DNA of 64,000 nt, from assembly GCA_050747905.1 (NCBI GenBank), contig JBOGKQ010000013.1, positions 3,529-67,528 of the forward strand. The letters are read 5' to 3'. Each line of letters starts with the position of its first letter. Position 1 is the first letter of the stretch. The position numbers and the translations under genes were made by a program. Source of the stretch: Terriglobales bacterium (GTDB lineage Bacteria > Acidobacteriota > Terriglobia > Terriglobales > SCQP01). The notes below the pieces were generated by a model. That model was not told where the DNA came from and did not search any database. It worked only from the letters and a program-made list of their open reading frames with translations. This document shows positions 27,628 to 49,407 of the stretch, piece by piece.

Positions 27628-27859
27628 GTTGGCGCGGGCCCCAGCGCGGCTGCGCCGCGCGCCCCGCTTATGCTCGCGTCGGGTTGGGGGCCCTTGGCCC
27701 CAACCTGACGCTGCGCCTCGCTCCCACCCCAAGGCGCAGGCGCCTTGGGGGCCCCGGGGGTGGGGCCGCGCCTGCATGTCTCCCCGGGGGCGGGCCGCCG
27801 TGCCGAATTTCGCAGCCCTTCGCGCCGCTTTTGCCCACGGTGCAAAGCGGCGCGACCCC
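27628..27859 (+). repeat. Dispersed intergenic repeat family, long copy
   Basis: gttggcgcgggccccagcgcggctgc ... gggttgggggcccttggccccaacctgacgctgcgcctcgc ... gaatttcgcagcccttcgcgccgcttttgcccacggtgcaaagcggcgcgacccc. Confidence 0.85.
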
Positions 27860-27922
27860 TGCGAACTGACAATTCGCCGCATGCTAAACTGGCTACGTCT
27901 CCGGCGCCTTGGCGCGTGCCGC

Positions 27923-28000
27923 GTCCCCGTCGTCTAGCCCGGCCTAGGACACCGCCCTTTCACGGCGATAACACGGGTTCGAATCCCGTCGGGGACGCCA
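27923..28000 (+). tRNA. tRNA-Glu (anticodon UUC), CCA encoded
   Basis: GTCCCCGTCGTCTAGCCCGGCCTAGGACACCGCCCTTTCACGGCGATAACACGGGTTCGAATCCCGTCGGGGACGCCA. The acceptor stem pairs GTCCCCG with CGGGGAC. Anticodon loop CUUUCAC; T-arm GGTTCGAATCC. Close to E. coli tRNA-Glu. Confidence 0.9.
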
Positions 28001-28017
28001 ACAAAATAAAGAGCTTA
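27954..28017 (+). repeat. 64-bp direct repeat, left copy (tRNA-Glu 3' 47 nt plus 17 nt downstream); attL-like
   Basis: gccctttcacggcgataacacgggttcgaatcccgtcggggacgccaacaaaataaagagctta is identical (64/64 by eye) to 31198-31261. Confidence 0.9.
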
Positions 28018-28250
28018 CTCTGGCTTTCGCTTTTCCTTCATGGTCCATTATGGTCCAATAAGCCCGCAACCCCTTTAGTTGCCATGGGCCATGGTCCAAT
28101 CTTGGTCCATCTGGAATGGCCCGCCGTATCGCTAGCGGGCCGGCGCCGTTCCACGCACCAGGCTGGCGAACCGACCTTGTGCTTCCCGTTTCTGGTGGCT
28201 GACCGCTTGCATGTAGACGTCGGTCGTCACCTTCAGGCCGCTCGTCGCGG

Positions 28251-29012
28251 GTGCTTCGCGTTCTTCTCGAACGACAGCAGGAGTGGTCGGTCAAAGGCAT
28301 TGCTGACGAATTGGCTCGCGAAGCGGACCGGCTGGCGGCGGAGGTGCCCCAATGGCAATTCGATCTTCGGGTCAGCATGGGAACCGTTTCAAAGGTCATC
28401 ACCAGCCTGGAGGAATAGCTTTGGATTCGCCGCCAGGGGAACAAAATCGTTGTTCCCGAGCCGGCGCGCCTACTCCAGCAATGGGCGGAAAAATACAAGG
28501 AGCGGTATCGGTGGCGATTGCGTGGGGCTGTTCAGACCGTGAACCCATTCGGAGCGAATATCAGCGCAATCGCAGAGGGTCTTCTGCCCGCGGTGTCGGT
28601 ACCCTGTGCGGCTTCGGGTGCCCTTGCCGTTCAAGATGTGGCGCCATGGGTTGAGGCGGACATCGTTGATCTTTTCATCCCGTCGGCGATACCAGACGCG
28701 AAAGCGCTGGCCAAGCAGTTGAGCAGCTTCGACGGCGAGGGATCAGGGAACGGCACGGGGTTCGGTCCCGGCTCAGGTAGCGGGCGCGGATTCGGCGATG
28801 GCACAGGTTCTGACGGAGACAGGGGCAGTCGCCTGCGATTCATTGTTCCCTTCGACATCGGCGTGTTCATTTACTGTCGTCGAAGGGGCGCGGCCATTGA
28901 GGTGTCGCTCGTTCAGGCGTACCTTGACCTCTATGCGCGCGGCGGACGCGATTTGAAGCAGGCGGAACATTTGCTGGCGCAAGCCATCGAGCCCCGGTGG
29001 AGGAAGCCATGA
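28251..29012 (+). pseudogene. AbiEi-like transcriptional regulator/antitoxin homolog interrupted by in-frame TAG (28416-28418)
   Basis: Single frame reads VLRVLLERQQEWSVKGIADELA...VSMGTVSKVITSLEE*LWIRRQGNKIVVPEPARLLQQWAEKYKERY..., a wHTH followed by the LL..WA..Y pattern of this family. Also contains a Gly-rich low-complexity insert, GEGSGNGTGFGPGSGSGRGFGDGTGSDGD. Confidence 0.4.
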
Positions 29013-29087
29013 TCCCTGAACCGCAAAAAGCCTGTTCATTTTGCATTGCTGTTCACGAATAGTGAACAGCAATGCAAGCGTAATCGT

Positions 29088-29474
29088 CTAATGCTTTTTC
29101 GACTCGAATAGCCTTTTGATCGCCTCCAGGCCGGCTTTTTGTCTCTTGACTTCCGCATCGCTGGCGCCGTCGATCGTAAGCTCGGCGTTAACGTCAAAGT
29201 CCTTTGGACGCCCATCCCTCTGCCACGCGGCGTGTAGCTCGGCGTGTCGAGCCCGTGCACTAACCAAACCGTGCAGGGCGACTGGCGCTGCCGGGCACAG
29301 ATTGCACAGTGGTTGGAGTGTGAAATATGGGGCGACGTCCCATCCTGCCTGGAACGCAGCGTCAGCGCTTTCGAATATTTCGGCATAACCGCAACAGAGA
29401 CATGTATACGTTGGCACGACTTCGGCACCTCGTCTTCTAGGCTTCTTCAGACCCAGGGACCGCCCGGGCTCCAC
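29088..29474 (-). CDS. Hypothetical Cys-rich protein
   Basis: 128-aa ORF with CLCCGY...CNLC. Overlaps the AbiEii 3' end by 28 nt, so the true start is probably internal. No recognisable family. Confidence 0.3.
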   Translation of the reverse strand: MEPGRSLGLKKPRRRGAEVVPTYTCLCCGYAEIFESADAAFQAGWDVAPYFTLQPLCNLCPAAPVALHGLVSARARHAELHAAWQRDGRPKDFDVNAELTIDGASDAEVKRQKAGLEAIKRLFESKKH

Positions 29475-30364
29475 TGCGCAGAAAACGGCTCCGCGGACCT
29501 GGCATATGCGAAGGGTTCGTAAAGGAAGCTCTGCAATTCTCGTACCACCTGCTCCAGGGATTCGAACTCGCTCTGTCGGCTTTTCATCACGAATGCCTTC
29601 CAGTTCGCCTGAGCCTTCGCATCCCGAATAAACCTCTCGCTGAGCGCCACAATCTCGCCATCCGGGAGAGGGGTGGCGCGGCGGCGAAACGTAGCACGGA
29701 GAGCAATGGCCAGCGATTCACCCTCAAAGGCAACGCGGCGGGCAGCCATGGCGAGGTCGCAAAAATCCTTCATCCGGCTATTCGAGATGCCGAGATCGAC
29801 CATGGCTTCGGCTTTCTCGGCCACGATAGTTTCTGTGGGATACGCGAGAACATGCGGCGCCACCATATCGGGGAGGAGTGTCGGAAATGCCAAGTCCAAT
29901 GCCGCAGGGGTGATCGCGTCGCCAAATCCGACGTCAATCTGGAGGTGGATGCGGGCGTCGGCAAGATTGGCCTGAATGACGGCACGCAGCCCGCCATAGC
30001 GATTGTCTTCCCGGATCGGATGCACCGCCAGAGTATTTGCATCGAAAACGAGTCCATCGTCATCAGCGCCCACGGAGACGATCTCGCGGAGTGCCGTATC
30101 GATGGCTGTCGCAGTGGTTTCACCCAAGCCGAGGAGATCAAGGTCTCTTGTGGCCCGATACTGTTCCCCGATGCGCACCGCGAATAGCATGGCACCCTTG
30201 AGGACAAACCGATCGCGGTACTTCGATATGGAAAGCCGATAGAGGAAACGCTCGGCGCCGTAGTTCATCAGCGTCAACGTAAAATCTTCGCGGCGCTCCT
30301 TGGCAATGTTCAAAAGGCGCGCCCTTACAGACGCGGAAACGTTCACCGGCGTCTTCCGTTTCAT
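29447..30364 (-). CDS. AbiEii/AbiGii-type nucleotidyltransferase toxin (type IV TA, DUF1814)
   Basis: SVRARLLNIAKERREDFTLTLMNYGAERFLYRLS...FVLKGAMLF...RATRDLDLL...IDVGFGD is the typical AbiEii N-terminal and NTase pattern. Confidence 0.85.
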   Translation of the reverse strand: MKRKTPVNVSASVRARLLNIAKERREDFTLTLMNYGAERFLYRLSISKYRDRFVLKGAMLFAVRIGEQYRATRDLDLLGLGETTATAIDTALREIVSVGADDDGLVFDANTLAVHPIREDNRYGGLRAVIQANLADARIHLQIDVGFGDAITPAALDLAFPTLLPDMVAPHVLAYPTETIVAEKAEAMVDLGISNSRMKDFCDLAMAARRVAFEGESLAIALRATFRRRATPLPDGEIVALSERFIRDAKAQANWKAFVMKSRQSEFESLEQVVRELQSFLYEPFAYARSAEPFSAQWSPGGPWV

Positions 30365-30957
30365 GACATCCCGTCCCAGTAAGGGCGCATGACTTTGGCA
30401 ACCCTCAGTCGATGCGCCTCACGCCACAGATCATCAACCGTGCCCTTGCGCAGGCGGCGATAGTCTCTAAGGGCCTCGACGGCGACATCAATGCCAATTC
30501 TGTTGCGGAACTTGAAGCAGTCCGCCACCGTCCTTGCCGGACTCGTCACGCGCACCTTGACACCGTCGATATTGTGGACTTCGATGCCCCCCGCTAGGGC
30601 TGCGCCCGAGACTCGGACAGTTCGGACCGGCGTGAAGTCTACTCGTGGTATTCCTGCGCGTCTGTCTACCGCGAGCCAAACCTCACGGGGATTCTCGGTA
30701 CCGAGGCTATGAAACCGAAGCGCGGTGAGCAGACAGAACGTGGCTTTAGGGACGCGTTTCGCCACTTCTGCCAGTGTGTGGTGTTCGGTCAGCTTAATGG
30801 TAGGTAGTGCATACAGTCCGCGCCCGACCCGCGTCAGTTCCCCCCGGCGCGTCAGCCGACGAACATGCTCGGGGTGGACGCCAACGGCTGTGGCTTCGGA
30901 CAGCCGAAACAGCCGTTTTTTTTGAGCCAGCCGAAGAATGCGTGCCTGGGGCTCCAT
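30361..30957 (-). CDS. AbiEi-family antitoxin/transcriptional regulator
   Basis: VRRLTRRGELTRVGRGLYAL...CLLTALRFHSLGT...ITSPARTVADCF. 4-nt overlap with the AbiEii start. Start taken at MEPQARIL. Confidence 0.85.
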   Translation of the reverse strand: MEPQARILRLAQKKRLFRLSEATAVGVHPEHVRRLTRRGELTRVGRGLYALPTIKLTEHHTLAEVAKRVPKATFCLLTALRFHSLGTENPREVWLAVDRRAGIPRVDFTPVRTVRVSGAALAGGIEVHNIDGVKVRVTSPARTVADCFKFRNRIGIDVAVEALRDYRRLRKGTVDDLWREAHRLRVAKVMRPYWDGMS

Positions 30958-31197
30958 CGCAATGTGTAATATTACTACCATTTGAATTTAAATGGTAGCG
31001 ATTCGACACGTCCGACCGGACGCCGGTTCGTCGAAACGGATTCCGCCCACATCGGAGCACCAACCTTGGTTACCACCCCGCAAAGGCGGTAACCGTTCAT
31101 GGTCCATTCATGGTCCAGTAGCCGTTCCCCAGGGTGCCAAACACGGTTTTGGGAGCCACCCGTGCCGTTGATTGTCAATGGGTTACGTGCAGTGGCG

Positions 31198-31261
31198 GCC
31201 CTTTCACGGCGATAACACGGGTTCGAATCCCGTCGGGGACGCCAACAAAATAAAGAGCTTA
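31198..31261 (+). repeat. 64-bp direct repeat, right copy (tRNA-Glu 3' fragment); attR-like
   Basis: Identical to 27954-28017. Lacks the tRNA 5' half, so it is not a functional tRNA. Confidence 0.9.
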
Positions 31262-31262
31262 A

Positions 31263-31302
31263 GTTGGGGACCCTTGGCCCCAGCCCGGCGCTGCGCCTCG
31301 CT
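31263..31302 (+). repeat. Dispersed repeat family, core-module fragment
   Basis: gttggggacccttggccccagcccggcgctgcgcctcgc matches module ii (gggttgggggcccttggccccaacccgacgctgcgcctcgc). Confidence 0.6.
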
Positions 31303-31310: not shown

Positions 31311-32196
31311 TCAGGGCGTGGCCAGGGCGATATCGAGCGTGCGCAGGCGCTCTGGAGTGCCGATGACCTCCATGGCGGCGATGCGGTCGCCGGCAAAGGT
31401 GAAGCGCAGCACGCGTGCCAGCTTGCCGCGAGGAGCGACGACGGCGCCGATTTCGCCATTCACCAGCGCCGGACGTGTGAAGCGCGTGCCGGCGCGGTAT
31501 GTCATGGCCTGCGCCGCCCAGGCGCGCGCGCCGTGGACGGCGGCGCCGGCCGCGGCAGCGCCGCCGGGCAGATCGGCGGTCACGGCGAAATTGGGATCGA
31601 GCACCGCGACCACGGCTTCGAGGTCGCCGGCGCGAAGCGCCGCAAGAAAGGTTTCCACCAGACGGCGCTGGCGGCCGAGTGGCGCCGAACCGGGGCGCGG
31701 ACCGACGCGAACACGGCGGCGGGCGCGGCTGGCGAGCTGGCGCGCCGCTTCGGGGGAACGGCCCAGGACGGAGGCGATTTCGGCGAACGAGACGGCGAAC
31801 AGATCGTGCAGCACGAACGCCAGCCGCTCAGCGGGCGCAAGGCGGTCGAGCACGACCATCAACGCAAGCCCGACGGCGTCGGCCAGCGCCGCTTCCTGCT
31901 CGGGGTCGCGGCGCCCGGCCTTGGGTTTCGCGCTCGGGCGCGCCTTCGAGCGCGGTTTCGCGCCGGCCGGCGCGGCCGCGCAACTGGTCGAGACAGATGC
32001 GGGACACCACGGTGGTAAGCCAGGCGGAGAGGTTCTCGATCCCCGGCGCGTCGGCCCGGCTGAGACGCAGCCAAGCCTCCTGCACCGCGTCGTCGGCTTC
32101 GGTGCCCGAGCCCAGCAGACGGTAGGCCACGCCGTGCAACCGGGCGCGGTTCTGCTCGAATTGCTGGGCGAGAAAATCTGCCCCCGCGCCGGTCAC
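31311..32196 (-). pseudogene. ECF sigma-70 factor (SigJ/ECF41-like with SnoaL-like C-terminal domain), frameshifted
   Basis: The N-terminal ORF (31828-32196) reads AQQFEQNRARLHGVAYRLLGSGTEADDAVQEAWLRL...LTTVVSRICLDQLR. The C-terminal ORF (31311-31862), in the +1 frame, reads DPEQEAALADAVGLALMVVLDRLAPAERLAFVLHDLF...SPEAARQLASRARRRV. The frame switch maps to about 31905-31947. Confidence 0.75.
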
Positions 32197-32920: not shown

Positions 32921-33655
32921 TCACGCCGCTTGGGGTTGCAGCGGAAGCGGGCGGCCGGGGATGGCGGCTGACGCGGACCGCCAATTCTCGAACGGAGCGC
33001 GGCGGCTGAGGCGGACGGATTCGAGCAGGTCGCGGACGATGGCCCGGCGGGTGAGGATGCAGGCTTCAAGGCACGCTAATTCGTCGGCGGCTGCCCACTC
33101 CGGCGGAATCGCCGCCATGACTGCGTGCAACTTGGCCTCTGAGAACTGCTCGATCCGGGACAGCCACGGCTCGAACGCATCCCAGCCGGTGATGGTCTGA
33201 TAGGCACCGTTGCGCGAGTAGACGCCGCGAAGCTGGCTATCTGGGAACGTCCAGTCGCCGGCGTTGAATACGAATCCCCAATCAATGAAGTAGGCCAGCA
33301 TACGGGCGCGCGGTTTGGGGCGGCAAAACACTACCTGGCGTCCGTCGCATTGGCACAGCCATTTGTCCACGGCCAGCACGCCGGCAAACTCGGTCAGGTT
33401 GTGGACGGATTCCATGTGCGCTTCGGGCAGGTAATCGTATTTCGGGGCATCGGGATTGCCGGTCGGCACCCGCGAGGCAAATGCCAGTCCAGCCACGGGC
33501 CGTTCTTCTCTCCTGCTGCTACAGCGGAATACCATCGCGGAATTCCGCTCAATCATGTCCGGCGAAGCGTCCATGATCTCGAAGTCCAGCACGGTCGCTG
33601 TCCTCGGATAGAAGCTGGGCTTGCGAGCCGCCGCGCATGGGACGGATGTATTCAT
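32921..33655 (-). CDS. HipA-like kinase family protein (putative)
   Basis: VLAVDKWLCQCDGRQ...AYFIDWGFVFNAGDW...IPPEWAAA resembles the F-D-x-W-x-x-N-x-D-R ... IDHG pattern of HipA-like kinases, but key residues differ. No HipB partner seen. Confidence 0.4.
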   Translation of the reverse strand: MNTSVPCAAARKPSFYPRTATVLDFEIMDASPDMIERNSAMVFRCSSRREERPVAGLAFASRVPTGNPDAPKYDYLPEAHMESVHNLTEFAGVLAVDKWLCQCDGRQVVFCRPKPRARMLAYFIDWGFVFNAGDWTFPDSQLRGVYSRNGAYQTITGWDAFEPWLSRIEQFSEAKLHAVMAAIPPEWAAADELACLEACILTRRAIVRDLLESVRLSRRAPFENWRSASAAIPGRPLPLQPQAA

Positions 33656-33734
33656 TGGCGCGAATCATGGAATGCCTCCCCGGCCCGCTGCGGTCCGTGA
33701 TGCAGGACCGCAACAAGCCGCTGGAAATCGGGCG

Positions 33735-34670
33735 TTAGTTGGCCTTGGTCTCGGTAAGCGCCGCGATGATTTGGGAGGCAACGCGGGTGATGGATTCCAG
33801 CGATTCGCGGAGGGTGTCGCGGTCGCCATCGTAAAGGCTGATGTAGTCGGCGGAAGCGGTATTCATGTCCAAACCGACAGACAGTCCCACCGCGTAGGCC
33901 ACGGCCTCGGCTTCGGTTTCCTTGACCTTGCGGCTCAGTTCCTTTCGCCGTTCCCCGTCGTGCAGCAGTTCGTGTGCGAGTTCATGCACCAGCACGGAGA
34001 ATTCGCGGGCCGGTTCCAAGCCAGCGAGAATGTAGACCTTGCCCTTGGCGCTCAGCCCTTCCGCGCCGTCCAGGTTCTCCTTGTACTCCAGCGCGATGCC
34101 CTTCCGCTCGTACAGCGCCCTGATTCCTTCGAGGTCGCCTTCGAGGTTGGCCCCCGGATCGCCTTCCGCCTGGGGCGCGGATGGCAGCGGCTCCCCCACG
34201 GTCTGCGCCACATCGAACACATAGGCCACGCGGAAGCCGCACACCCGCTGCGAAGAGCCTTCCTGCGCATCTTCGGGGTCCGGCCGCTTTGTCAGGATGG
34301 GAGCCAAAATGTGGATGGCCCTTTCGTCCTTGCAAACCTGCCGTCCCAACGCCTGCCAGCGTTGGTACCCGGCGACATGGGTTGACTCGGGCCGCTGCGC
34401 GAGGATCAGAAGCTGGTTGCAAAAGCTGTAGCGATGAAACCGCGACATGACGCCCAGGTACTGCTGTATGGCATCGCTCCGGCCAGCTTCCAGCGCGTCC
34501 GCCAGCCGGTTGATAGCCTCTTCGCAGAGGATTTGCGCCTTGCTCTTTTTCTCAGGGGCATTTCTCTCAGCGCCCCCGCGCGCGCCGCCTGTGGACTCCG
34601 CCGGAAGCGTTGAGCCCGTGGCGGGCTGGAAGGAAGAAGTGCTTTCGGTGGTGATGATTTGAGAATTCAT
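33735..34670 (-). CDS. ardC: ArdC-like antirestriction protein (ssDNA-binding N-domain plus HExxH metalloprotease)
   Basis: RFHRYSFCNQLLILAQRP...GYQRWQALGRQVCKDERAIHILAP is a DUF1738-type N-domain. LVHELAHELLH is the zincin motif. Start MNSQ (cat 34668-34670) is preceded by GGAG. Confidence 0.85.
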   Translation of the reverse strand: MNSQIITTESTSSFQPATGSTLPAESTGGARGGAERNAPEKKSKAQILCEEAINRLADALEAGRSDAIQQYLGVMSRFHRYSFCNQLLILAQRPESTHVAGYQRWQALGRQVCKDERAIHILAPILTKRPDPEDAQEGSSQRVCGFRVAYVFDVAQTVGEPLPSAPQAEGDPGANLEGDLEGIRALYERKGIALEYKENLDGAEGLSAKGKVYILAGLEPAREFSVLVHELAHELLHDGERRKELSRKVKETEAEAVAYAVGLSVGLDMNTASADYISLYDGDRDTLRESLESITRVASQIIAALTETKAN

Positions 34671-34953
34671 GGTGTGCTCCTTTTTCTGCCCCGAAGCCTT
34701 TGGTGCGGGGCGCCCAAGGGCGAAGCGGGCCGCTCCCAAGGCCAAGGGCTGCATTCTTGGGGGGACCAGCGCAGCGTATGGGGGAGCCAAGAAAGCAGAA
34801 GCCCGCCGTGCCGCCAGGGCGCGGCAGTAGTCCGCTGAAGCCAGCGCCGCACCGGAGAGCGCAGGGGCGGGAGGGCACACCAGTCTCAATCACCGGCCGA
34901 AATCAACTGGATTGTCGGTCGCAGGAGGCACGGGCTGGATATCGGGGGGATCT

Positions 34954-35085
34954 CAAAAGCTGTAGTGATGAAACTGCGACATGACGCCGAAGAAATGCAG
35001 CATGGCATCGTGCTGGTCGGCTTCCATCGCATCCGCCCGCCGCTTGATCGCCGTTTCGCAGAGGATTTGCGCCTTGCTCGTTTTC
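34954..35085 (-). pseudogene. Truncated second ArdC N-terminal fragment
   Basis: About three quarters identical by eye to 34420-34550. Reads ...KAQILCETAIKRRADAMEADQHDAMLHFFGVMSQFHHYSF* and ends abruptly. Confidence 0.6.
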
Positions 35086-35184
35086 ACAGCGCCCCTTTCG
35101 GGGGCAAAGCCAAAGGCGCTCGCTTGCGACGCATCGAGATCGAGGTCCCGGTTGAGGTGGCGGGCTATACTGCCACTACCGCCA

Positions 35185-35841
35185 ATGAGCCTGATCAGGT
35201 CAAAGAAACGTGTTGCCGATCATGGAGAGGTTTTCACCCCTCCGTGGCTGGTCGAGGCGATGCTCGACCTCGTCAAGGGTGAGTCCGAGCGCATTGACTC
35301 GCGCTTCCTGGAGCCGGCGTGCGGTAGCGGAAACTTCCTCGTCCGGATTCTGCGACGCAAGCTCGCCGCCGTACAGATCAAGTACGGCAAGTCGGACTTC
35401 GAGCGCCGGAACTACGCCCTGCTCGCACTGATGTGCATCTACGGCATCGAGTTGTTGGGGGACAACGTTGCCGAATGCCGCGCGAACCTGCTCGAGATTT
35501 TCGCTGATTACCTGAACTTGGATGAACCGGGCGAACTATCCCGCGCAGCGTGCTGCGTACTGTCGCAGAATGTCGTGCATGGCGACGCGCTGGCGATGCG
35601 TGCCTCCGATGGCCAACCAATAACCTTTGCCGAGTGGGGCTACCTCGGCGCGGGCAAGTTTCAGCGGCGCGATTTCCGGCTCGACATCCTTACCGGTGCG
35701 TCCGCCTTCAGCGCGGAGGGCTCCCTCTTCGCCCACTTGGGCAAGCATGAAATCTTCACCCCGGATAAGACCTACCCGCCAATGACCGTGAGCGAGCTGG
35801 CCGCCGCCGCACACGGCGGCACGCCGAAGGAGGCCGCATGA
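35185..35841 (+). CDS. Methyltransferase-like SAM-binding protein lacking the NPPY catalytic motif
   Basis: GEVFTPPWLVEAMLDL (motif X), FLEPACGSGNFL (motif I), IYGIELL. No (D/N/S)PP(Y/F) anywhere in the 218 aa. ATGA overlap with the next gene. Confidence 0.6.
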   Translation: MSLIRSKKRVADHGEVFTPPWLVEAMLDLVKGESERIDSRFLEPACGSGNFLVRILRRKLAAVQIKYGKSDFERRNYALLALMCIYGIELLGDNVAECRANLLEIFADYLNLDEPGELSRAACCVLSQNVVHGDALAMRASDGQPITFAEWGYLGAGKFQRRDFRLDILTGASAFSAEGSLFAHLGKHEIFTPDKTYPPMTVSELAAAAHGGTPKEAA

Positions 35842-37445
35842 GCACGCAGGTTGGTTTTGCGCTGCGCGGCCGCAATCCGGATGTGCTTACGTGCATCGCG
35901 AACCTCTCAAATGACGAGGTGTTCACGCCCCCCGAGTTTGCGAACCGGATGCTGGACACGTTGACCGAGGCATGGGCCGCGAACCACAGTGGCGCGGATA
36001 TTTGGGCGGACGGGACGGCGACGTTCCTCGATCCGTGCACGAAATCAGGCGTCTTCCTGCGCGAGATCACCAGCCGCCTTAACAAGGGTTTGGCCGGTGA
36101 AATCCCGAACAGTCAGGAGCGCGTCGATCACATCCTGAACAAGCAGGTGTTCGGCATCGGGATCACGTATCTCACAAGCTTGCTGGCGCGTCGCAGCTTG
36201 TATTGCTCGAAACACGCCAACGGCGAGCATTCGATCACGAGGGGCTTCGAGAGCGACGCCGGCAACATTTGGTTCGAGCGTATCGAGCACGCGTGGGCGG
36301 GTGGCAAATGCAGGTACTGCGGGGCGAGCCAGAAGGCATTGGACCGCGGCGAGGCGCTCGAGACCCACGCCTACGGTTTTATTCACACCGGCGAAATCAA
36401 AGCTCGGATCGCCGAGCTGTTTGGAGGCGAAATGCAGTTCGACGTGATCATCGGCAACCCGCCGTACCAATTGGACGACGGCGGCTATGGCACAAGCGCG
36501 GCGCCGATTTACCAGTTGTTCGTGGAGAAGGCGCTCGAGCTCGATCCGCGCTACGCTGTGTTTGTGACGCCGTCGCGCTGGATGGCCGGGGGTAAGGGGC
36601 TCGACAAATACCGCGAGCGGATGCTCTCCGACAAGCGGATACGGCGTATCGTTGACTACCCGAAACTCTACGAGGGATTTCCGGGAGTGAAAATTCGCGG
36701 CGGCATTTCCTATTTTTTGTGGGACCGCGAACACCGCGGGCCGTGCATGGTGCAGACGATTTGGGACGGCCAGCCGACTGGCCCGGCGGTTGCGCGCCAC
36801 CTGGACGAGTTCGACGTCCTCGTTCGGCGCAACGAGGCTGTGCCAATTCTGAAAAAGATTAGGGCCAGAGGCGAGCCCACGCTCGATCGGAGCGTCTCCA
36901 GCCGTAAGCCGTTCGGATTCGCCACGAATTTCAGAGGGAAGCCGTCCGCGGCGGGTTTGAAGAGGCCCGTAAAGCTCTTCGAGAACCAGCGGGTCGGCTG
37001 GGTCGAACGAAAGGCTATTGCCGTTAACTCCGAATGGATTGACGACTGGAAGGTTCTCATGACGGCTGTCCAGGGGACGAGCGCGGCCGTCGAGACCAAG
37101 TTTTTGAGCAAGCCAGTCATCGCCGAGCCGGGAACAGCGTGTAGCGAGACGTATCTTGTCGCTGGCCATTTTGAGACCGAGAAAGAAGCGACCAACTTTG
37201 CGCGCTACCTGCGTGCTCGGCTTGTGCGCTTTCTAGTCTCACTGCGCAAGCCCACCCAGCACGCGACGCGCGACGTTTATTCTTTCGTCCCGCAGCTCCC
37301 GCTCGATCGTGTCTGGACAGACGCCAAGCTCTACAAGAGGTACGGGCTAACCAAGGCCGAGATCGCCTTCATCGAGTCGCAGGTCGCCGAACACGATGGC
37401 GAATTATTCGACGAGGTCGCTGTGGGCGAAACCGAGAATGAGTAG
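35838..37445 (+). CDS. N6-adenine DNA methyltransferase (Eco57I-methylase-domain type, gamma-class order)
   Basis: NDEVFTPPEFANRML, FLDPCTKSGVFL and FDVIIGNPPYQ (motif IV). Long C-terminal domain, presumably for target recognition. GAAGGAGG lies upstream. Confidence 0.85.
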   Translation: MSTQVGFALRGRNPDVLTCIANLSNDEVFTPPEFANRMLDTLTEAWAANHSGADIWADGTATFLDPCTKSGVFLREITSRLNKGLAGEIPNSQERVDHILNKQVFGIGITYLTSLLARRSLYCSKHANGEHSITRGFESDAGNIWFERIEHAWAGGKCRYCGASQKALDRGEALETHAYGFIHTGEIKARIAELFGGEMQFDVIIGNPPYQLDDGGYGTSAAPIYQLFVEKALELDPRYAVFVTPSRWMAGGKGLDKYRERMLSDKRIRRIVDYPKLYEGFPGVKIRGGISYFLWDREHRGPCMVQTIWDGQPTGPAVARHLDEFDVLVRRNEAVPILKKIRARGEPTLDRSVSSRKPFGFATNFRGKPSAAGLKRPVKLFENQRVGWVERKAIAVNSEWIDDWKVLMTAVQGTSAAVETKFLSKPVIAEPGTACSETYLVAGHFETEKEATNFARYLRARLVRFLVSLRKPTQHATRDVYSFVPQLPLDRVWTDAKLYKRYGLTKAEIAFIESQVAEHDGELFDEVAVGETENE

Positions 37446-39969
37446 ACCCATCGATGAGATCCTCGCACCGAAGCCGATTGCGCGGCCGAAGATCTACGCC
37501 TACTCGATTGCCGACGAGGCGCACGAGGGCCTCCTTAAAGTCGGACAAACCACCCGCGACGTGAAACTACGTGTGGCCGAACAGGTAAGGACCGCCGCCA
37601 TCAAGAACTACCGCATCGAGCTCGCCGAACCTGCCGAGCGCGACGTTGGGTCAGTCTTCACCGATCACGAGGTGCGTGCGGCTCTCGTAAGGAAGCGCTT
37701 CGAAAACGCCGACTTGGAATGGATGCGCTGCACCGTCGACGACGTGAAGACGGTTCTCGCCGAGCTTCGCGCCGGCCAAGAATTCACCGGGAGGCATTTT
37801 GCAACGTTCAAAATGCGCCGCGAGCAGACGGAGGCGGTGAAGAAAACCCACGCCTACTACCACTCGATCTGGAAGGAGGACATGCACGCCGTCCCGCGCT
37901 TCCTCTGGAACGCGAAGATGCGCTTCGGCAAGACTTTTACTGCCTATCAGCTCGCCAAGAAACTTGGCGCCAAGCGCGTGCTGGTCGTGACGTTCAAGCC
38001 CGCCGTCGAGGATTCCTGGCAGACCGAACTCGATGGCCATACGGACTTCGAAGGCTGGCAGTACCTCTCGAACTCCTCCGGCCGCGACCCGACGCAGGTC
38101 GAGCGTGGGAAGCCGGTCGTCTATTTCGGCTCGTTCCAGGACCTGCTCGGGCGCGATGCCGTCGGCAATATCAAGCCCAAGAATGAGTGGCTCCACGAGG
38201 TGAATTGGGACCTCGTGGTTTTCGATGAATACCATTTCGGAGCGTGGCGCGAGACCGCCAAGGAACTGTTCGAGGGCGAGGAGGATTCGAAGACCGAGGC
38301 CAAGCTCGAATACGACACCGGACTTGAGGAGGTGAATGAGGACCTTACTGTCCTGTCGGAGAAAGAGAGAGAGTTTCTCCCCATCACGACTAAGGCCTAT
38401 CTGTATCTCTCCGGGACGCCGTTCAAGGCGCTGGCCACGGGCGAATTCATCGAAGAGCAGATCTTCAACTGGACGTATACGGACGAGCAGCGCGCGAAAG
38501 AGGATTTCGCGAACGGGAACCCTGGAAAATGGAACCCTTACGGCGCGCTGCCGCAGATTCGACTGATGACGTACCAGATGCCGGATGAGCTGGTGGCGAC
38601 AGCGAGCGCCGGAGAGTTCGACGAGTTCGATCTCAACGAGTTCTTTGCCGCGACCGGCGCGGACAAAGGGGCACACTTTAAGCATCAGAGCGACGTGCAG
38701 AAGTGGTTGGACATCATCCGGGGCCAGTACGTGCCGAAGGCCGTCGAGAGCCTCAAGACCGGCACACGGCCGCCGTTCCCCTATTCGGACGTGCGCCTGC
38801 TGCCGTACCTGCAACACTCGTTCTGGTTCCTGCCCAATGTCGCCGCATGCCACGCCATGAAGAACCTGCTGGCCGAGAAGCACAACACTTTCTGGCGCGA
38901 ATACAAAGTAGTCGCTGCGGCCGGGGCTTCGGCGGGGATCGGACTTCAGGCACTGCCGCCGGTGCGGAAGGCGATTGCGAGCGGGTTCGACACCAAGACG
39001 ATCACGCTCTCGTGCGGCAAGCTCACCACCGGTGTCACTGTGCCGCAGTGGTCATCCATCCTGATGCTGCGCAACCTGAAATCGCCTGAGACCTATTTCC
39101 AGGCGGCGTTCCGCGTGCAGTCGCCGTGGTCCATCAAGAATCCGAATGGTGACGACCCGGGCGAGGAAGAGATTCTCAAGCCCGTGTGCTTCGTTTTTGA
39201 TTTCGCGCCCACGCGTGCGCTTCGTCAACTCTCCGAATACGGTATCCGGCTCTCGCCCAACGAATCGAATCCGGAAAACGCCATCAAAGATCTCGTGTCG
39301 TTCCTGCCAGTGCTGGCCTACGACGGCGCGAACATGACGCAGATTGATGCGGGCGGCATTCTCGACATCGCGATGGCGGGCACCTCGGCCACGCTGCTGG
39401 CGCGCAAATGGGAGAGCGCACTGTTGGTGAACGTGGACAACGAAACGCTGGGCCGCATCCTGAAAAATCCTGAAGCTATGGCAGCGGTGGAACGCATAGA
39501 GGGCTGGCGCGCGCTGGGTGACAACATCATTGAGACCATTATCAACAAAAGCGTAAAGGTCAAGGACCTCAAGAACAAGGCCAGAGACAAGGAGTTGACG
39601 AAGAAGGAGAAGAGCGTCCTCACCGAGGAGGAGAAGGAATACAAGTCCAAGCGCAAACTGGTGCAGGAGAAGCTGATCAAGTTCGCGGCACGCATCCCGG
39701 CGTTCATGTACTTGACGGACTTCCGCGAGAACACACTACAGGACGTCATCACCAAGTTGGAGCCGGATCTGTTCCTGGCTGTCACCGGTCTGACGGTCAA
39801 GGACTTCCATCTGCTCGTGCGCCTCAAGGTGTTTAACACCGAGCAAATGAACCAGGCGGTTTTCGCGTTCCGCCGCTATGAGGACGCTTCGCTGCGGTAC
39901 GCCGGCATCGAAAGCCACGAAGGGCTCTCCCATTACGGGCTGTACGATACCGTGGTGGGAAGGGAGTGA
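37438..39969 (+). CDS. GIY-YIG/T5orf172 nuclease domain fused to an SF2 (ResIII/SNF2-like) helicase; putative restriction subunit
   Basis: N-terminus KIYAYSIADEAHEGLLKVGQTTRDVKLRVAEQ is T5orf172-like. MRFGKTFTAYQLA is Walker A; VVFDEYHFGA is the DExH box. C-terminal helicase lobe. 8-nt overlap with the methyltransferase stop. Confidence 0.8.
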   Translation: MSRPIDEILAPKPIARPKIYAYSIADEAHEGLLKVGQTTRDVKLRVAEQVRTAAIKNYRIELAEPAERDVGSVFTDHEVRAALVRKRFENADLEWMRCTVDDVKTVLAELRAGQEFTGRHFATFKMRREQTEAVKKTHAYYHSIWKEDMHAVPRFLWNAKMRFGKTFTAYQLAKKLGAKRVLVVTFKPAVEDSWQTELDGHTDFEGWQYLSNSSGRDPTQVERGKPVVYFGSFQDLLGRDAVGNIKPKNEWLHEVNWDLVVFDEYHFGAWRETAKELFEGEEDSKTEAKLEYDTGLEEVNEDLTVLSEKEREFLPITTKAYLYLSGTPFKALATGEFIEEQIFNWTYTDEQRAKEDFANGNPGKWNPYGALPQIRLMTYQMPDELVATASAGEFDEFDLNEFFAATGADKGAHFKHQSDVQKWLDIIRGQYVPKAVESLKTGTRPPFPYSDVRLLPYLQHSFWFLPNVAACHAMKNLLAEKHNTFWREYKVVAAAGASAGIGLQALPPVRKAIASGFDTKTITLSCGKLTTGVTVPQWSSILMLRNLKSPETYFQAAFRVQSPWSIKNPNGDDPGEEEILKPVCFVFDFAPTRALRQLSEYGIRLSPNESNPENAIKDLVSFLPVLAYDGANMTQIDAGGILDIAMAGTSATLLARKWESALLVNVDNETLGRILKNPEAMAAVERIEGWRALGDNIIETIINKSVKVKDLKNKARDKELTKKEKSVLTEEEKEYKSKRKLVQEKLIKFAARIPAFMYLTDFRENTLQDVITKLEPDLFLAVTGLTVKDFHLLVRLKVFNTEQMNQAVFAFRRYEDASLRYAGIESHEGLSHYGLYDTVVGRE

Positions 39970-40099
39970 GGGGTGCGGGCCTTGCCTCAATAGAGCAATG
40001 TCGAGGTACCGGGACTCCCGAGCGGTGCCTTGCCTGAACATCTTGGTGGAATATGCCGATCGCAGCAACGTGGCGGCCTGTTATGGTCGAAGCCGGCAG

Positions 40100-40698
40100 T
40101 CACGGCGGCGCTGGTCGAGACCACCGCCTACACCGTCTGGTTCAGCGATTTGCTGGCAGGGTTGAAGGTGTAGCTGATCTTCGGCGACGCCGCCAAACTG
40201 GCGGCGATCGGGGTGCTGTAGGTGAAGGCCGACCGCCGCGTCGCCGAGCAAATGCTGGAAGCCTATCTGCGAGGCCAGTTTCCGGAGGTGAAGATGGCGT
40301 GGCCGGAACAGCGCGGCCTGCGGGAGCTGCTGCTGCTGCACCGGAACCGGCTGGTGTGGACCCGAACCCGGTTCAAGGACGGGCCACACCTGCTGGCCAT
40401 GAGACGGGGGATCAACCGCAAAGCTGGGCTGTTCAGCCCGGCGTGGCGGCAGGTGCTGAACCAGTTGCGGTTGAGCCGATGGGAGAGCGAGGCGCGCAGC
40501 GATCTGTTGCTGGCGCCGGATGCCTTGAAGCCCCGCATCGGGGAACTGGACCAGGCGGTGAAAGAGGCGGTGCGTGCCAATGCCCTGGCCGAGCGCTTGC
40601 GCACTCATCCCGGAGCCGGGCCAGTGACGACGCTAGCTTGGGTGCAGATCATGGGCGATTGCCGGGATGCTACGATTGTGGGGTTTCAAGAGGCTTGA
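40100..40698 (+). pseudogene. IS110-family transposase relic (both ends missing, two in-frame TAG codons)
   Basis: Frame reads AALVETTAYTVWFSDLLAGLKV*LIFGDAAKLAAIGVL*VKADRRVAEQMLEAYLRGQFPEV...LLLLHRNRLVWTRTRFK...HPGAGPVTTLAWVQIMGD. TAG codons at 40171-40173 and 40219-40221. No DEDD N-terminus or C-terminal Transposase_20 region. Confidence 0.7.
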
Positions 40699-40704
40699 GC
40701 GCCA

Positions 40705-41319
40705 ATGGGCTGTTTTCTCTGCTCTCCCGATCCGGCGTTGGTCTACGCAGCGAACGCCGAGGCTTTCGCGCTGTGCGGACTGGGGCCCCTCGTGCGCGGT
40801 TATAGCATCGTTGCGACGCGAGCCCACGTCCGATCCTGCGCCGACTCTGCCACGGAATCCCCGTCGCTCTTAGAATTCACCGAGCAGATCAGGGGATTTT
40901 TGGGCTCGATCTACGGGTCCTGCTTGGTCACGGAGCACGGGCGCCTGCCGGTCTGCGCCAGGTCAGAGGGCTCGGGGGGACACTGCTTCCACGCACATTT
41001 CCTGCTATTTCCCCGAGCCCCCGACATTGTCAATGCCTGCCGGCCCTATTTTGGACTGGCAGAGGCCACCAGCGGCCTCGGGCCCACAATGGCCCTTGCC
41101 TGCGGACGACAAGAATATTTTCTTGTGGCACCGACGCCCACCGAGTGCTGGATCATGACTCGGCCACTCCTCCTATGCCGCCAGTTCGCACGCCGGATGG
41201 TCGCCGATCGGCTTGGCATCCCCGAGGAGGCGGACTGGGCGATGCACCCCAAAGCCAACGCCGCAGAGTCGGAGGCCGAACACCTCCGGCGCCGCGTGCT
41301 AACGTGGGCGACGCCGTGA
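40705..41319 (+). CDS. HIT-like (histidine-triad fold) protein
   Basis: N-terminal CFLC. GLGPLVRGYSIVATRAHV parallels D..P...GH.LV.PK.HV. GGHCFHAHFLLFPR parallels the HxHxHxx-PR triad. Confidence 0.6.
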   Translation: MGCFLCSPDPALVYAANAEAFALCGLGPLVRGYSIVATRAHVRSCADSATESPSLLEFTEQIRGFLGSIYGSCLVTEHGRLPVCARSEGSGGHCFHAHFLLFPRAPDIVNACRPYFGLAEATSGLGPTMALACGRQEYFLVAPTPTECWIMTRPLLLCRQFARRMVADRLGIPEEADWAMHPKANAAESEAEHLRRRVLTWATP

Positions 41320-45943: not shown

Positions 45944-46363
45944 GGCGCGAATCCAAGGCGGAGCTCGTGCAAAGGACGGTCCTCGCGTTTAGAGAGCCGT
46001 CATTTTCGATGGATGGCGACGACGTTCCATTCTGCCCGAGACTGGTATGTATAAGTGCTTGAGCCAAAACGATTGCGCAACGCTGCCCAGGAACAGGTCC
46101 GCGATACTGCCAAGATGGCCGGAGCCGGGCTAGATCAAGCCGAGGGACTGCAAAAGCCTTGCCTGACATTGTGGTCGGCACTTCGCGGGATTTCAACACG
46201 ATCCTTGAAGTGGGTGGGGCCGATGCCGTGTTCGTCAGTATACGCCCGCCACCGCCGCGCTCGCATGGCTGAGCAGCGTCGAACCTGCGTGATCGGCAGG
46301 CCAGCGGTCAAGACACCGCATGCGAAAGTGCCCCGCTGCCGATGCGCATCGCGGGCCATGCCA

Positions 46364-47185: not shown

Positions 47186-47199
47186 GTATGCCTCCTTGC

Positions 47200-49280: not shown

Positions 49281-49407
49281 CCCGAGCGCTTCCTCCGGCG
49301 GGCGCCGTGCCCGCCGGACCCGCCCTCCCAGGTCTGGATCAATCCGCCAAAAAAGGAGGTAAAAGCTCTCTAAACTCCCACCTCAGGTGTCTCACTCTCA
49401 TTGACAC

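What the first reader, a model, noticed from the sequence alone, without database searches (positions are those of the whole stretch)
27923..31261. tRNA-Glu with a perfect 64-bp direct repeat bounding an integrase-less 3.2-kb AbiE islet
Seen in the sequence: 27954-28017 (the last 47 nt of tRNA-Glu plus 17 nt downstream) is repeated exactly at 31198-31261. The interval holds an AbiEi/AbiEii pair with a 4-nt overlap, an amber-interrupted AbiEi-like gene and a Cys-rich ORF. No tyrosine or serine recombinase appears in any frame. Established knowledge: integration into a tRNA 3' end that regenerates the tRNA and leaves an att direct repeat is the hallmark of integrase-mediated islands. A 64-bp perfect repeat suggests a recent event. 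Inference: this is a non-autonomous, possibly trans-mobilised defence islet, or the remainder of a larger island after deletion of its integrase module.
Basis: partly seen in the sequence, partly recalled or inferred. Interest (0 to 1): 0.6.

Follow-up and report, generated by a model that had tools for sequence, protein, structure and literature searches.

The report
Decayed tRNA-Glu island carrying AbiE
This is the stranded remnant of a mobile DNA island that inserted into a tRNA-Glu gene of a soil Terriglobales bacterium, later lost almost all of its integrase gene, and now carries an intact AbiE toxin-antitoxin/phage-defence cassette; it is a well-known kind of object, not a new one.

Summary
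tRNA-Glu(UUC) lies at 27923-28000, and a perfect 64-nt repeat (27954-28017 and 31198-31261) brackets a 3.2-kb segment of 58% GC in a 67-73% GC genome. The segment is not truly integrase-free. The minus strand at 28135-28242 encodes the last 36 codons, including the catalytic Tyr, of a tyrosine integrase. That integrase is full length (394 aa) next to the same tRNA-Glu and arm repeats in related Terriglobia elements (L016, L017, L029). In a sister-species MAG (L025) the left arm is 236/238 identical and the integrase reads on past the window's breakpoint. A deletion with a 7-nt overlap of the two homology segments (TTCAGGC) fused this stub to the middle of a wHTH gene, which is therefore 5'-truncated and also amber-interrupted. 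The original cargo was replaced by a 2-kb cassette: abiEi, abiEii and a conserved Cys-rich gene. Both att arms and all six GTCCA arm-type repeats survive. The islet therefore fits the definition of a CIME (cis-mobilizable element), a decayed integrative element that keeps attL and attR. Current trans-mobilisation is untested. Two MAGs of one sister species differ in having or lacking the element at tRNA-Glu. Verdict: new member of a known kind, low to moderate interest.

The parts
27923..28000 (+). Intact tRNA-Glu(UUC) gene, which is the integration target. Its 3' 47 nt form part of attL.
   Evidence: ARAGORN; Rfam RF00005, 55.1 bits.
27954..28017 (+). attL identity block: 64 nt, running from the anticodon stem/loop to the tRNA 3' end plus the 17-nt trailer ACAAAATAAAGAGCTTA.
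   Evidence: Perfect direct repeat. Across the family, identity begins at the anticodon loop CTTTCAC (alignments A1 and A2).
28018..28131 (+). Left (integrase-proximal) att arm. It holds four same-strand arm-type repeats: ATGGTCCA at 28040, 28050 and 28091, and TTGGTCCA at 28102.
   Evidence: The arm is 236/238 identical to L025 over 28001-28238 and about 90-92% identical to L010, L016 and L017.
28132..28242 (-). 3' remnant of the tyrosine integrase gene: 36 codons plus stop (...SGLKVTTDVYMQAVSHQKREAQGRFASLVRGTAPAR*), including the catalytic Tyr motif.
   Evidence: Translation. tblastn of the L016 integrase matches residues 359-394 at 91.7% identity, E 1e-15. Family HMM E 7e-11, HMM positions 366-399. 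The full-length protein is Pfam Phage_integrase, E 9e-26.
28232..28238 (.). Deletion junction. The integrase-side and wHTH-side homology segments overlap by 7 nt (TTCAGGC), read as junction microhomology. The integrase 3' end is fused here to codon ~217 of the wHTH gene.
   Evidence: blastn segment map: 27913-28238 and 28232-29028 match non-adjacent parts of L012 and L016. The gap is about 3.2 kb in L016 coordinates and about 1.1 kb in L012 coordinates.
28251..29012 (+). Pseudogene of a 470-aa wHTH protein. It lacks residues 1-216 and has an amber codon at 28416-28418.
   Evidence: Translation. tblastn of the L016 470-aa protein matches residues 217-467 at 72% identity, E 1.5e-112. The gene is intact in L012 and L016.
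29009..29029 (+). First 7 codons (MIPEPQK) of the partner nucleotidyltransferase gene, with a 4-nt overlap onto the wHTH gene. The rest of this gene has been replaced.
   Evidence: Sequence compared with L012 and L016. Homology ends at 29028/29029. There is no tblastn match to the rest of the L016 NTase.
29041..29077 (.). Perfect palindrome with 16-nt arms (TTGCATTGCTGTTCAC..GTGAACAGCAATGCAA) at the left edge of the inserted cassette. It may be a bidirectional terminator or a recombination scar.
   Evidence: the repeat finder pair I16. The proposed function is inference.
29088..29417 (-). Conserved Cys-rich 109-aa gene (invariant C6, C8, C9, C38, C41, H58, H62 and a WDVAP motif). It is the third gene of the cassette. 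Its function is unknown, and it is probably a zinc-binding protein.
   Evidence: 36 homologues; alignment A3. The same AbiEi-AbiEii-Cys trio occurs in L020 and L023, and the gene follows HipA in L021. AF2 mean pLDDT 72.5, and no PDB fold match.
29447..30364 (-). abiEii, the DUF1814 nucleotidyltransferase toxin, full length.
   Evidence: Pfam PF08843, E 2.4e-42. PADLOC AbiEii, E 2e-103, covering residues 3-303 of 304.
30361..30957 (-). abiEi, the wHTH antitoxin and repressor. It is 198 aa from the ATG at 30957; the longest ORF starts at 30981.
   Evidence: Pfam AbiEi_4, E 1.4e-13. PADLOC AbiEi, E 4e-75.
30974..30999 (.). Palindromic operator-like site (CTACCATTTAAATTCAAATGGTAG on the coding strand), followed by a -10-like TAATAT, upstream of abiEi.
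   Evidence: the repeat finder pair I13. The half-sites are conserved upstream of abiEi in L020 and L023 (alignment A4). AbiEi autoregulation through inverted repeats is published (PMC7319586).
31072..31197 (+). Right att arm with two arm-type repeats (ATGGTCCA at 31099 and 31110).
   Evidence: 92.6% identical to the L012 right arm and 90.8% to the L016 right arm; alignment A2.
31198..31261 (+). attR identity block, a partial tRNA-Glu 3' copy that is not a tRNA.
   Evidence: Neither ARAGORN nor Rfam calls a tRNA here.
31263..31302 (+). Host REP-like dispersed repeat immediately outside attR. It marks the return to native chromosome.
   Evidence: Four copies in the window, at 3666, 27686, 31266 and 55329. 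GC returns to about 0.70.

Best explanation
The 3.2-kb interval is a decayed member of a family of tyrosine-integrase elements that target the tRNA-Glu(UUC) gene in Terriglobia (Acidobacteriota).

Integration (inferred). An ancestor integrated by site-specific recombination between its attP and the tRNA gene. attP carries a copy of the tRNA 3' part plus the 13-17-nt acidobacterial trailer. The crossover most likely fell in the anticodon loop, where family-wide identity begins. This regenerated the tRNA at attL and left a partial copy at attR.

Decay (shown from sequence comparison). Relative to the intact relative L016, a deletion of about 3.2 kb is present, and the two homology segments overlap by 7 nt at its junction. 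It removed integrase codons 1 to about 358, the adjacent module (virB4'/virB3/virB2 remnants in relatives) and the first 216 codons of a wHTH gene. The surviving part of the wHTH gene then acquired an amber codon. The original cargo (nucleotidyltransferase, dGTPase and other genes in relatives) was replaced by a self-contained 2-kb cassette: operator/promoter, abiEi, abiEii and a Cys-rich gene.

Consequence (inferred). The element can no longer move on its own. It still has attL, attR and all six GTCCA arm-type repeats. By definition it is therefore a CIME-like element. It could be excised or co-transferred only if a cognate integrase is supplied in trans, or if a related element integrates beside it (accretion).

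Function of the cargo (inferred). The intact AbiE module probably acts as an abortive-infection/type IV toxin-antitoxin system. As an addiction module it may also help the remnant to persist.
For: - att structure and composition.
- Integrase remnant: residues 359-394, 91.7% identity, E 1e-15; the only hit among 1098 six-frame ORFs, E 7e-11.
- Full-length integrases in the same position beside the same tRNA and arm repeats: L016 (394 aa, Phage_integrase E 9e-26), L017 and L029. The family has at least 3669 members at E<=1e-60.
- Sister-species MAG L025: left arm 236/238 identical, and the integrase continues past the window's breakpoint.
- Presence/absence polymorphism: L024 and L025 differ at 7 of 2583 flank positions, then diverge from the second base after the tRNA. 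L024 lacks the arms.
- Segment map showing the deletion and the cargo replacement. Intact wHTH/NTase genes in L012 and L016.
- Arm-type repeats: GTCCA is invariant while its 5' flanks differ between diverged elements (A1 and A2).
- Right flank is host DNA, shown by the REP-like repeat.
- AbiE intact. The cassette is conserved as a trio elsewhere and has a conserved operator-like palindrome.
- CIME definition and the accretion model: PMC5704250. Tandem arrays of decayed relatives at tRNA-Glu in L011 and L012.
Against: - No empty-site allele of this host itself was found. Only the source MAG and a Logan assembly of run SRR27067711 carry its flanking proteins.
- The contig comes from a MAG. A de Bruijn graph with a 64-nt repeat is equally compatible with 'empty site plus circular or foreign islet'. 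The independent Logan contig breaks exactly k-1 = 30 nt inside the right repeat, so it does not resolve this.
- The order of events (deletion before or after integration here) cannot be read from one sequence.
- The 64/64 identity of attL and attR, together with intact arms, would also fit a recent arrival in trans.
- The closest parent (L025) is cut by a contig end, so its cargo and full integrase are unknown.
- Anti-phage or addiction activity of this AbiE trio is untested.
Confidence: 0.8

Rival explanations
1. Actively trans-mobilised defence satellite. In this reading the integrase was lost before arrival. The islet, in its present form, was integrated recently into this tRNA-Glu by an integrase supplied by a related element in the same cell, and it continues to spread this way.
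For: - attL and attR are 64/64 identical.
- All six arm-type repeats are intact, and the left arm is 99.2% identical to that of an integrase-bearing element in a sister population. That population appears in a neighbouring run accession (L026 from SRR27067709, against SRR27067711 for the window).
- The islet's GC has not ameliorated towards the host's.
- The integrase family is very abundant in soil metagenomes.
- Tandem accretion occurs in the family (L011, L012).
Against: - No second occurrence of this deleted form or of its proteins was found outside the source sample.
- No cognate integrase exists elsewhere in the 64-kb window.
- Independent, different integrase truncations in L012 (residues 338-394 retained) and L011 (193-394) show that in-situ decay is common in this family.
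- The backbone pseudogenes (amber codon, truncated NTase) look like neutral decay rather than a streamlined satellite.
Confidence: 0.13
2. Assembly or binning artefact. The islet belongs to another Terriglobales population in the sample, or exists there as a circle. It was threaded into this contig through the shared 64-nt tRNA-Glu repeat.
For: - The source is a MAG.
- The repeat is a branch node in the k=31 Logan graph.
- A nearly identical left arm exists in another population of the same study.
Against: - Modern assemblers and 150-nt reads span 64 nt.
- The islet's arm differs from L025's at 2 of 238 positions, so it is not simply that element.
- Both flanks carry this host's REP-like repeat.
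- Even if the placement were chimeric, the object would remain an att-flanked, integrase-deleted islet; only its host would change.
Confidence: 0.06
3. Plain segmental duplication of the tRNA 3' end with unrelated intervening DNA, with no site-specific recombination involved.
For: Only the bare fact of a direct repeat.
Against: - The repeat starts at the anticodon stem/loop and restores the tRNA.
- The DNA just inside both repeats is homologous to the arms of integrase-bearing elements at the same tRNA in at least 6 other loci.
- An integrase stub is present.
- A sister species shows occupied and unoccupied alleles.
Confidence: 0.01

Closest known systems
CIMEs (cis-mobilizable elements), for example the CIME derivatives of ICESt1/ICESt3 in Streptococcus thermophilus. 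Definition taken from PMC5704250; the named examples are from my own knowledge.
   Same: [quoted passage not shown] It arises by decay of an integrative element. Relatives occur in tandem arrays with other elements at the same site (L011, L012).
   Different: The host is an acidobacterium and the target is tRNA-Glu. The element is very small (3.2 kb). Cis or trans mobilisation has not been demonstrated here. A 36-codon integrase stub survives.
tRNA-targeting tyrosine-integrase genomic islands and ICEs/IMEs with lambda-type att sites, meaning a core site plus arm-type integrase-binding repeats (established knowledge).
   Same: Insertion is in the 3' part of a tRNA gene, with identity starting at the anticodon loop. 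The tRNA is regenerated. Direct repeats are present. The integrase gene lies next to attL in intact relatives. There are repeated arm motifs (GTCCA, paired at 10-11 bp spacing) on both arms. An HTH_17 (Xis/AlpA-like) gene sits upstream of int in L029.
   Different: The integrase is deleted here. Binding of the integrase to the GTCCA repeats is inferred from conservation only.
AbiE type IV toxin-antitoxin / abortive-infection system (Lactococcus, Streptococcus agalactiae; PMC3985639, PMC7319586), and AbiE carried on ICESsuHN105, where it stabilises the ICE (PMC11062541).
   Same: A wHTH AbiEi (PF13338) and a DUF1814 nucleotidyltransferase AbiEii (PF08843) form an overlapping bicistron. A palindromic operator-like site lies upstream. 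The module is carried on an integrative element.
   Different: A conserved third gene (Cys-rich, 109 aa) follows abiEii here and in L020 and L023. It is not part of the described two-gene system. Activity is untested.

Membership tests
tRNA-integrated tyrosine-integrase element (genomic island/ICE/IME) | Insertion in the 3' part of a tRNA gene, flanked by direct repeats that regenerate the tRNA | tested here: met
   an intact tRNA-Glu at attL, and a 64-nt perfect partial copy at attR.
tRNA-integrated tyrosine-integrase element (genomic island/ICE/IME) | Encodes its own functional integrase next to an att site | tested here: not met
   Only residues 359-394 of 394 remain. The six-frame Pfam scan finds no recombinase domain.
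tRNA-integrated tyrosine-integrase element (genomic island/ICE/IME) | Homology of the ends to elements that do carry the integrase at the same target | tested here: met
   Left arm: 99.2% identical to L025 and 90-92% to L010, L016 and L017. Right arm: 91-93% identical to L012 and L016.
tRNA-integrated tyrosine-integrase element (genomic island/ICE/IME) | Presence/absence polymorphism at the target (an empty site exists) | tested here: inconclusive
   Shown for a sister species: L024 is unoccupied and L025 occupied, with flanks 99.7% identical. An element-free acidobacterial tRNA-Glu with the same trailer exists in L013. No empty allele of this host itself was found.
CIME (cis-mobilizable element) | Retains both attL and attR | tested here: met
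   both identity blocks and both arms, with all arm repeats.
CIME (cis-mobilizable element) | [quoted passage not shown] | tested here: met
   Integrase stub and deletion junction. Relatives keep int plus virB2/virB3/virB4' remnants. No such genes occur in the islet.
CIME (cis-mobilizable element) | Can be mobilised by a related element (accretion or trans-acting integrase) | not testable with these tools
   This needs junction reads or an experiment. Tandem arrays in L011 and L012 show that accretion happens in the family.
AbiE (type IV TA / Abi) | AbiEi antitoxin with an N-terminal wHTH, and an AbiEii DUF1814 nucleotidyltransferase | tested here: met
   PF13338, E 1.4e-13, and PF08843, E 2.4e-42. 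Full-length PADLOC matches at E 4e-75 and 2e-103.
AbiE (type IV TA / Abi) | Bicistronic, overlapping genes with an upstream inverted-repeat operator | tested here: met
   4-nt overlap at 30361-30364. Palindrome at 30974-30999, conserved in L020 and L023. Binding itself was not tested.
AbiE (type IV TA / Abi) | Toxicity neutralised by the antitoxin; abortive infection against phage | not testable with these tools
   Experimental property (PMC3985639).
AbiEi family (claimed for the amber-interrupted gene 28251-29012) | Sequence or profile similarity to AbiEi | tested here: not met
   No Pfam, PADLOC or NCBIfam AbiEi hit for the fragment or for the intact 470-aa homologue. BLASTP against the islet's AbiEi gives E 3. 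Only the gene context resembles AbiE: a 4-nt overlap with an NTase that hits PADLOC AbiEii at E 6e-6.
IME / phage satellite | Own integrase and/or relaxase-oriT or capsid-hijacking genes | tested here: not met
   The six-frame Pfam scan shows only AbiEi and AbiEii.

The most novel reading that the evidence does not exclude
The islet may be a live, trans-mobilised 'defence cartridge'. On this reading, minimal att-arm shells of an abundant Terriglobia tRNA-Glu integrase family persist and spread because cognate integrases are common in the community. Their cargo slot exchanges toxin modules: here a wHTH/NTase pair has been swapped for AbiE. In addition, the conserved Cys-rich 109-aa protein may be a portable third component that plugs into unrelated toxins, since it follows AbiEii in three loci and HipA in one. 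That would define a tripartite AbiE variant.
Probability: 0.12. Interest if true: 0.55.

Novelty: new member of a known kind. Interest (0 to 1): 0.27.

Why it matters
This is a clean, fully dissected example of how integrative elements decay into att-flanked islets. The deletion junction, the integrase stub and the cargo replacement can all be mapped to the base. It shows that an intact defence/TA module can outlive the vehicle that delivered it. It also points to a large, essentially undescribed family of tRNA-Glu-specific elements in Acidobacteriota, a phylum whose mobilome is poorly known. Members of this family carry defence cargo (AbiE, dGTPase, NTase pairs) and accumulate in tandem arrays. 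For annotation practice it is a warning: 'integrase-less' islands should be checked against related elements, because a 36-codon stub is invisible to domain profiles. None of this changes current concepts.

Tried and rejected
- blastn of the islet against PLSDB plasmids gave only tRNA-Glu matches.
- A viral-contig scan with the right-arm motif gave nothing.
- Exact-protein look-ups of the flanking genes and of AbiEii found only the source MAG and the Logan assembly of run SRR27067711, so there is no empty-site allele of this host. The RepB look-up found nothing.
- A search for a third att copy, which would indicate a tandem array in the window, found none, even with 3 mismatches.
- I first suspected that the 40-nt similarity between 27683-27722 and 31263-31302 indicated a segmental duplication. 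It is a dispersed REP-like repeat with 4 copies in the window, so I rejected that idea.
- The six-frame Pfam scan for any recombinase or transposase found none. The integrase stub was found only by comparison with relatives.
- I tested whether the conjugative-element-like region at 33-50 kb is the missing body of the island. It has no homology to the integrase or the virB2/3/4 remnants of L016, and host-like genes and the REP-like repeat lie in between. I treat it as separate.
- The Cys-rich protein has no Pfam, NCBIfam or PADLOC family. The AF2 model is of moderate confidence, and the Foldseek search of the PDB gave no hit with E<1.
- The AbiEi assignment of the interrupted gene is not supported.
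- A literature search for described acidobacterial ICEs found nothing specific.

Full report
**1. The observation**

ARAGORN finds tRNA-Glu(UUC) at 27923-28000, and Rfam confirms one complete tRNA there (55 bits). The repeat finder reports a perfect 64-nt direct repeat at 27954-28017 and 31198-31261. No third copy of the tRNA 3' end or of the 17-nt trailer exists in the window, even with 3 mismatches allowed; shuffles give 0-0.03 expected matches. GC is 0.55-0.60 between the repeats and 0.67-0.73 outside them.

AbiEi (30361-30981, minus strand) and AbiEii (29447-30364, minus strand) overlap by 4 nt. Both match Pfam (E 1.4e-13 and 2.4e-42) and PADLOC (E 4e-75 and 2e-103) over their full length. 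The in-frame TAG at 28416-28418 is real. All five ATGGTCCA copies in the 64-kb window lie within about 100-150 nt of the two repeats, all on the + strand, and a TTGGTCCA lies at 28102. The positional description is therefore exact.

**2. Where the sequence comes from**

Exact-protein look-ups place the window on contig CDBHFJ010000065.1 of MAG GCA_974122065.1. NCBI labels this MAG a Terriglobales bacterium. The only other assembly carrying the same proteins is the Logan assembly of run SRR27067711. Its k=31 contig for the right flank starts exactly 30 nt (k-1) inside the right repeat. The repeat is therefore a genuine branch node in an independent assembly of those reads. That assembly does not tell us which traversal of the graph is the true one.

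**3. Relatives found through the att core**

A genome-contig scan with GGACGCCAACAAAATAAAGAG returned five loci, all Acidobacteriota/Terriglobia MAGs.
- L013 is an element-free tRNA-Glu followed by ACAAAATAAAGAG and then unrelated sequence. The trailer is therefore native to acidobacterial tRNA-Glu loci, which explains why identity extends past the tRNA.
- L010 has a zf-UBP homologue, tRNA-Glu, the same left arm with ATGGTCCA at +40, +50 and +91, and then the C-terminus of a tyrosine integrase on the opposite strand. The contig ends there.
- L012 and L011 hold tandem arrays of partial tRNA copies separated by decayed elements.

**4. The integrase stub**

A metagenome scan with a motif from that C-terminus gave L016 and L017. 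In L016, tRNA-Glu and the arm are followed by a 394-aa ORF that is a bona fide tyrosine recombinase (Pfam Phage_integrase, E 9e-26). tblastn of this protein against the whole window gives a single hit: residues 359-394 at 28242-28135 on the minus strand, 91.7% identity, E 1e-15. The translation is ...SGLKVTTDVYMQAVSHQKREAQGRFASLVRGTAPAR*, which includes the catalytic tyrosine motif.

I also built an HMM from 120 family members and searched all 1098 six-frame ORFs of the window. It hits only this ORF (E 7e-11, HMM positions 366-399). A six-frame Pfam scan of 27900-31300 finds only AbiEii and AbiEi_4, so the stub is invisible to domain profiles.

**5. Anatomy by segment homology**

- 27913-28238 matches L010, L016 and L017 at 90-92% identity. 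This segment holds the tRNA, the left arm and the integrase 3' end.
- 28232-29028 matches L012 at 85% and L016 at 72%. In those loci this is the 3' part of a 470-aa wHTH gene plus the first codons of a nucleotidyltransferase gene that overlaps it by 4 nt.
- 29029-31071 has no counterpart in those elements.
- 31072-31261 matches the right arms of L012 (92.6%) and L016 (90.8%).

The first two segments overlap by 7 nt (TTCAGGC) in the window. They are separated by about 3.2 kb in L016 and about 1.1 kb in L012. I read this as a deletion with a short junction microhomology. It removed integrase codons 1 to about 358, the intervening virB4'/virB3/virB2 remnants seen in L016 and L012 and wHTH codons 1-216.

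Its AbiEi label is not supported by Pfam, PADLOC, NCBIfam or BLASTP. The partner NTase does hit PADLOC AbiEii weakly (E 6e-6) and Pfam NTP_transf_8 at threshold, so the pair is AbiE-like in architecture only. Of that NTase gene only MIPEPQK remains in the window (29009-29029).

**6. The closest parent and an occupied/unoccupied pair**

A homologue search with the flanking zf-UBP protein, followed by context look-ups, gave two MAGs of one sister species, L024 and L025. Their flanks differ at 7 of 2583 positions and diverge from the second base after the tRNA.
- L025 carries a left arm identical to the window at 236 of 238 positions. Its integrase reading frame continues for at least 80 codons to the contig end, well past the window's breakpoint.
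- L024 has tRNA-Glu, the trailer ATAAAATAAAGAGCTTG and then an ISL3-like transposase remnant. It has no arm repeats.

This is the presence/absence polymorphism expected of a mobile element, although it is seen in a sister species and not in the window's host. L026, which has the same gene order as L024/L025, comes from run SRR27067709, a neighbouring accession to the window's run. An integrase-bearing sibling therefore probably lives in the same study system.

**7. att architecture**

In alignments of six left ends and five right ends (A1 and A2), the identity shared by all att copies begins at CTTTCAC, the anticodon loop. It runs through the tRNA 3' end into the trailer. From established knowledge of tRNA-targeting tyrosine integrases, the crossover is most likely in the anticodon loop, with the stem halves acting as core-type sites. 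This is inference.

Both arms carry pairs of direct repeats 10-11 bp apart. In these, GTCCA is invariant, while the 5' flank differs between diverged elements: ATG in the window type, GCG, CCG and GGG in L011 and in the neighbours of the L012 islet. This is the pattern expected of arm-type integrase-binding sites, although binding is not shown. L029, with an intact integrase 92% identical to L016's, has the same arm and an HTH_17 (Xis/AlpA-like) gene just upstream of int. The window retains all six repeats but has neither protein.

**8. The cargo**

The unique 2-kb block is a self-contained cassette. Window 29197-30999 is 73% identical at the DNA level to a block in L020, where the same three genes occur in the same order inside a TA-rich region. 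L023 has the same trio.

Upstream of abiEi there is a palindrome, CTACCATTTAAATTCAAATGGTAG, followed by a -10-like hexamer. Its half-sites are conserved in L020 and L023. This matches the published autoregulation of abiE by AbiEi binding to inverted repeats (PMC7319586). AbiE is a bicistronic type IV TA/abortive-infection system (PMC3985639), and on an ICE of Streptococcus suis it contributes to element stability (PMC11062541). Both genes here are full length.

The third gene (29088-29417, GTG start, 109 aa) belongs to a conserved family with 36 detected members and invariant Cys, His and WDVAP positions. It has no family assignment. Its AF2 model is of moderate confidence (pLDDT 72.5), and no PDB fold matches. 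In L021 a homologue follows a HipB-HipA pair instead. Its role is unknown. A zinc-binding accessory to toxin modules is a guess.

**9. Boundaries and neighbours**

One base after attR begins a REP-like repeat that has four copies in the window, and GC returns to about 0.70. The island therefore really ends at 31261. The lower-GC region at 33-50 kb carries ArdC, MmeI/Eco57I-type and other methylases, ResIII/T5orf172, RepB primase, VirB11-like and TraG-like genes. It is a separate conjugative-element-like/defence region. It shares no homology with the integrase or T4SS remnants of L016.

**10. Interpretation**

Shown:
- the tRNA-Glu attL/attR structure;
- the integrase stub;
- the deletion junction;
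- the pseudogenised backbone;
- the replaced cargo;
- intact arms;
- integrase-bearing and decayed relatives at the same target;
- an occupied/unoccupied pair in a sister species.

Inferred:
- the crossover position;
- the function of the arm repeats;
- that the deletion happened in situ;
- that AbiE is active.

[quoted passage not shown] The tandem arrays in L011 and L012 illustrate the accretion route by which such remnants can move again.

I give 0.80 to 'decayed, stranded remnant', 0.13 to 'currently trans-mobilised satellite', 0.06 to 'assembly chimera through the 64-nt repeat' and about 0.01 to 'plain duplication'.

**11. Novelty and score**

This is a new member of a known kind. The element family in Terriglobia and the AbiE-plus-Cys-protein trio appear to be undescribed; a literature search found nothing specific. 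The principles involved are standard: tRNA integration, integrase loss, persistence of a TA/defence module. Interest 0.27.

Noticed in passing
window 3666-3702, 27686-27722, 31266-31302 (+) and 55329-55365 (-): A dispersed REP-like repeat: a hairpin GGGGnCCCTTGGCCCCA followed by GCGCTGCGCCTCGCT. It has four copies in 64 kb, against 0 expected by chance. One copy sits upstream of the tRNA and one immediately after attR.
   Followed up: partly
window 31311-32196 (-): The ECF-type sigma factor next to attR is split over two reading frames. Region 2 lies in 31828-32196. Region 4 plus a SnoaL-like tail lies in 31311-31862. This is either a frameshifted pseudogene or a MAG consensus error.
   Followed up: no
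window ~33000-50000: A lower-GC region (0.58-0.65) with ArdC, MmeI/Eco57I-type methylase/RM genes, a ResIII+T5orf172 protein, an HD protein, an N6/N4 methylase, an AIR-synthase-like protein, RepB primase, a VirB11-like ATPase and a TraG/VirD4 fragment. This is a conjugative-element-like defence island. No integrase was found in it and its boundaries were not defined.
   Followed up: partly
window 29088-29417 (-); L020 6001-6330; L023 4825-5160; L021 3954-4301: A conserved Cys-rich protein of about 109 aa (invariant C6, C8, C9, C38, C41, H58, H62, WDVAP). It has no family assignment and no PDB fold match. It follows abiEii in three loci and follows a HipB-HipA pair in a fourth. It may be a portable third component of toxin modules.
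   Followed up: partly
L012 1-6556 (read on the minus strand) and L011 2400-3500: Tandem arrays at tRNA-Glu in other Terriglobia MAGs: several partial tRNA copies separated by decayed elements. The integrases are truncated at different points (L012 islet keeps residues 338-394; L011 keeps 193-394). The arm repeats are variants of NNGTCCA. L012 also has a 49%-identical, apparently frameshifted integrase in the next element.
   Followed up: partly
L016 4142-12321: A relative of about 8.4 kb with an intact 394-aa integrase. It carries virB4'/VirB3/TrbC remnants, which suggest descent from an ICE, a wHTH-470/NTase-277 pair and a dGTPase (PADLOC dGTPase, E 1e-83). Its right att appears disrupted after 12321 by sequence carrying the repeat GTGGTCACCnCAAAACCGGCCA.
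   Followed up: partly
L024 6800-7000; L027 1-140; L028 1-125: An ISL3-like transposase remnant lies directly downstream of tRNA-Glu in three related Terriglobales MAGs. The same tRNA trailer region is therefore also a landing site for an IS.
   Followed up: no
L029 6804-8336: An intact family integrase is preceded by an 83-aa HTH_17 (excisionase/AlpA-like) gene. The cargo is quite different (LysR regulator, two-component system, outer-membrane protein, HipA fragment), which shows that the cargo of this integrase family is highly variable.
   Followed up: no
window 49566-53444 (-) and tRNA-Ser 51639-51715 (+): A 1292-codon open frame overlaps a tRNA-Ser(GGA) gene in a stretch of 0.70-0.74 GC. 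It is almost certainly a spurious high-GC ORF. No island signature was looked for at this tRNA.
   Followed up: no
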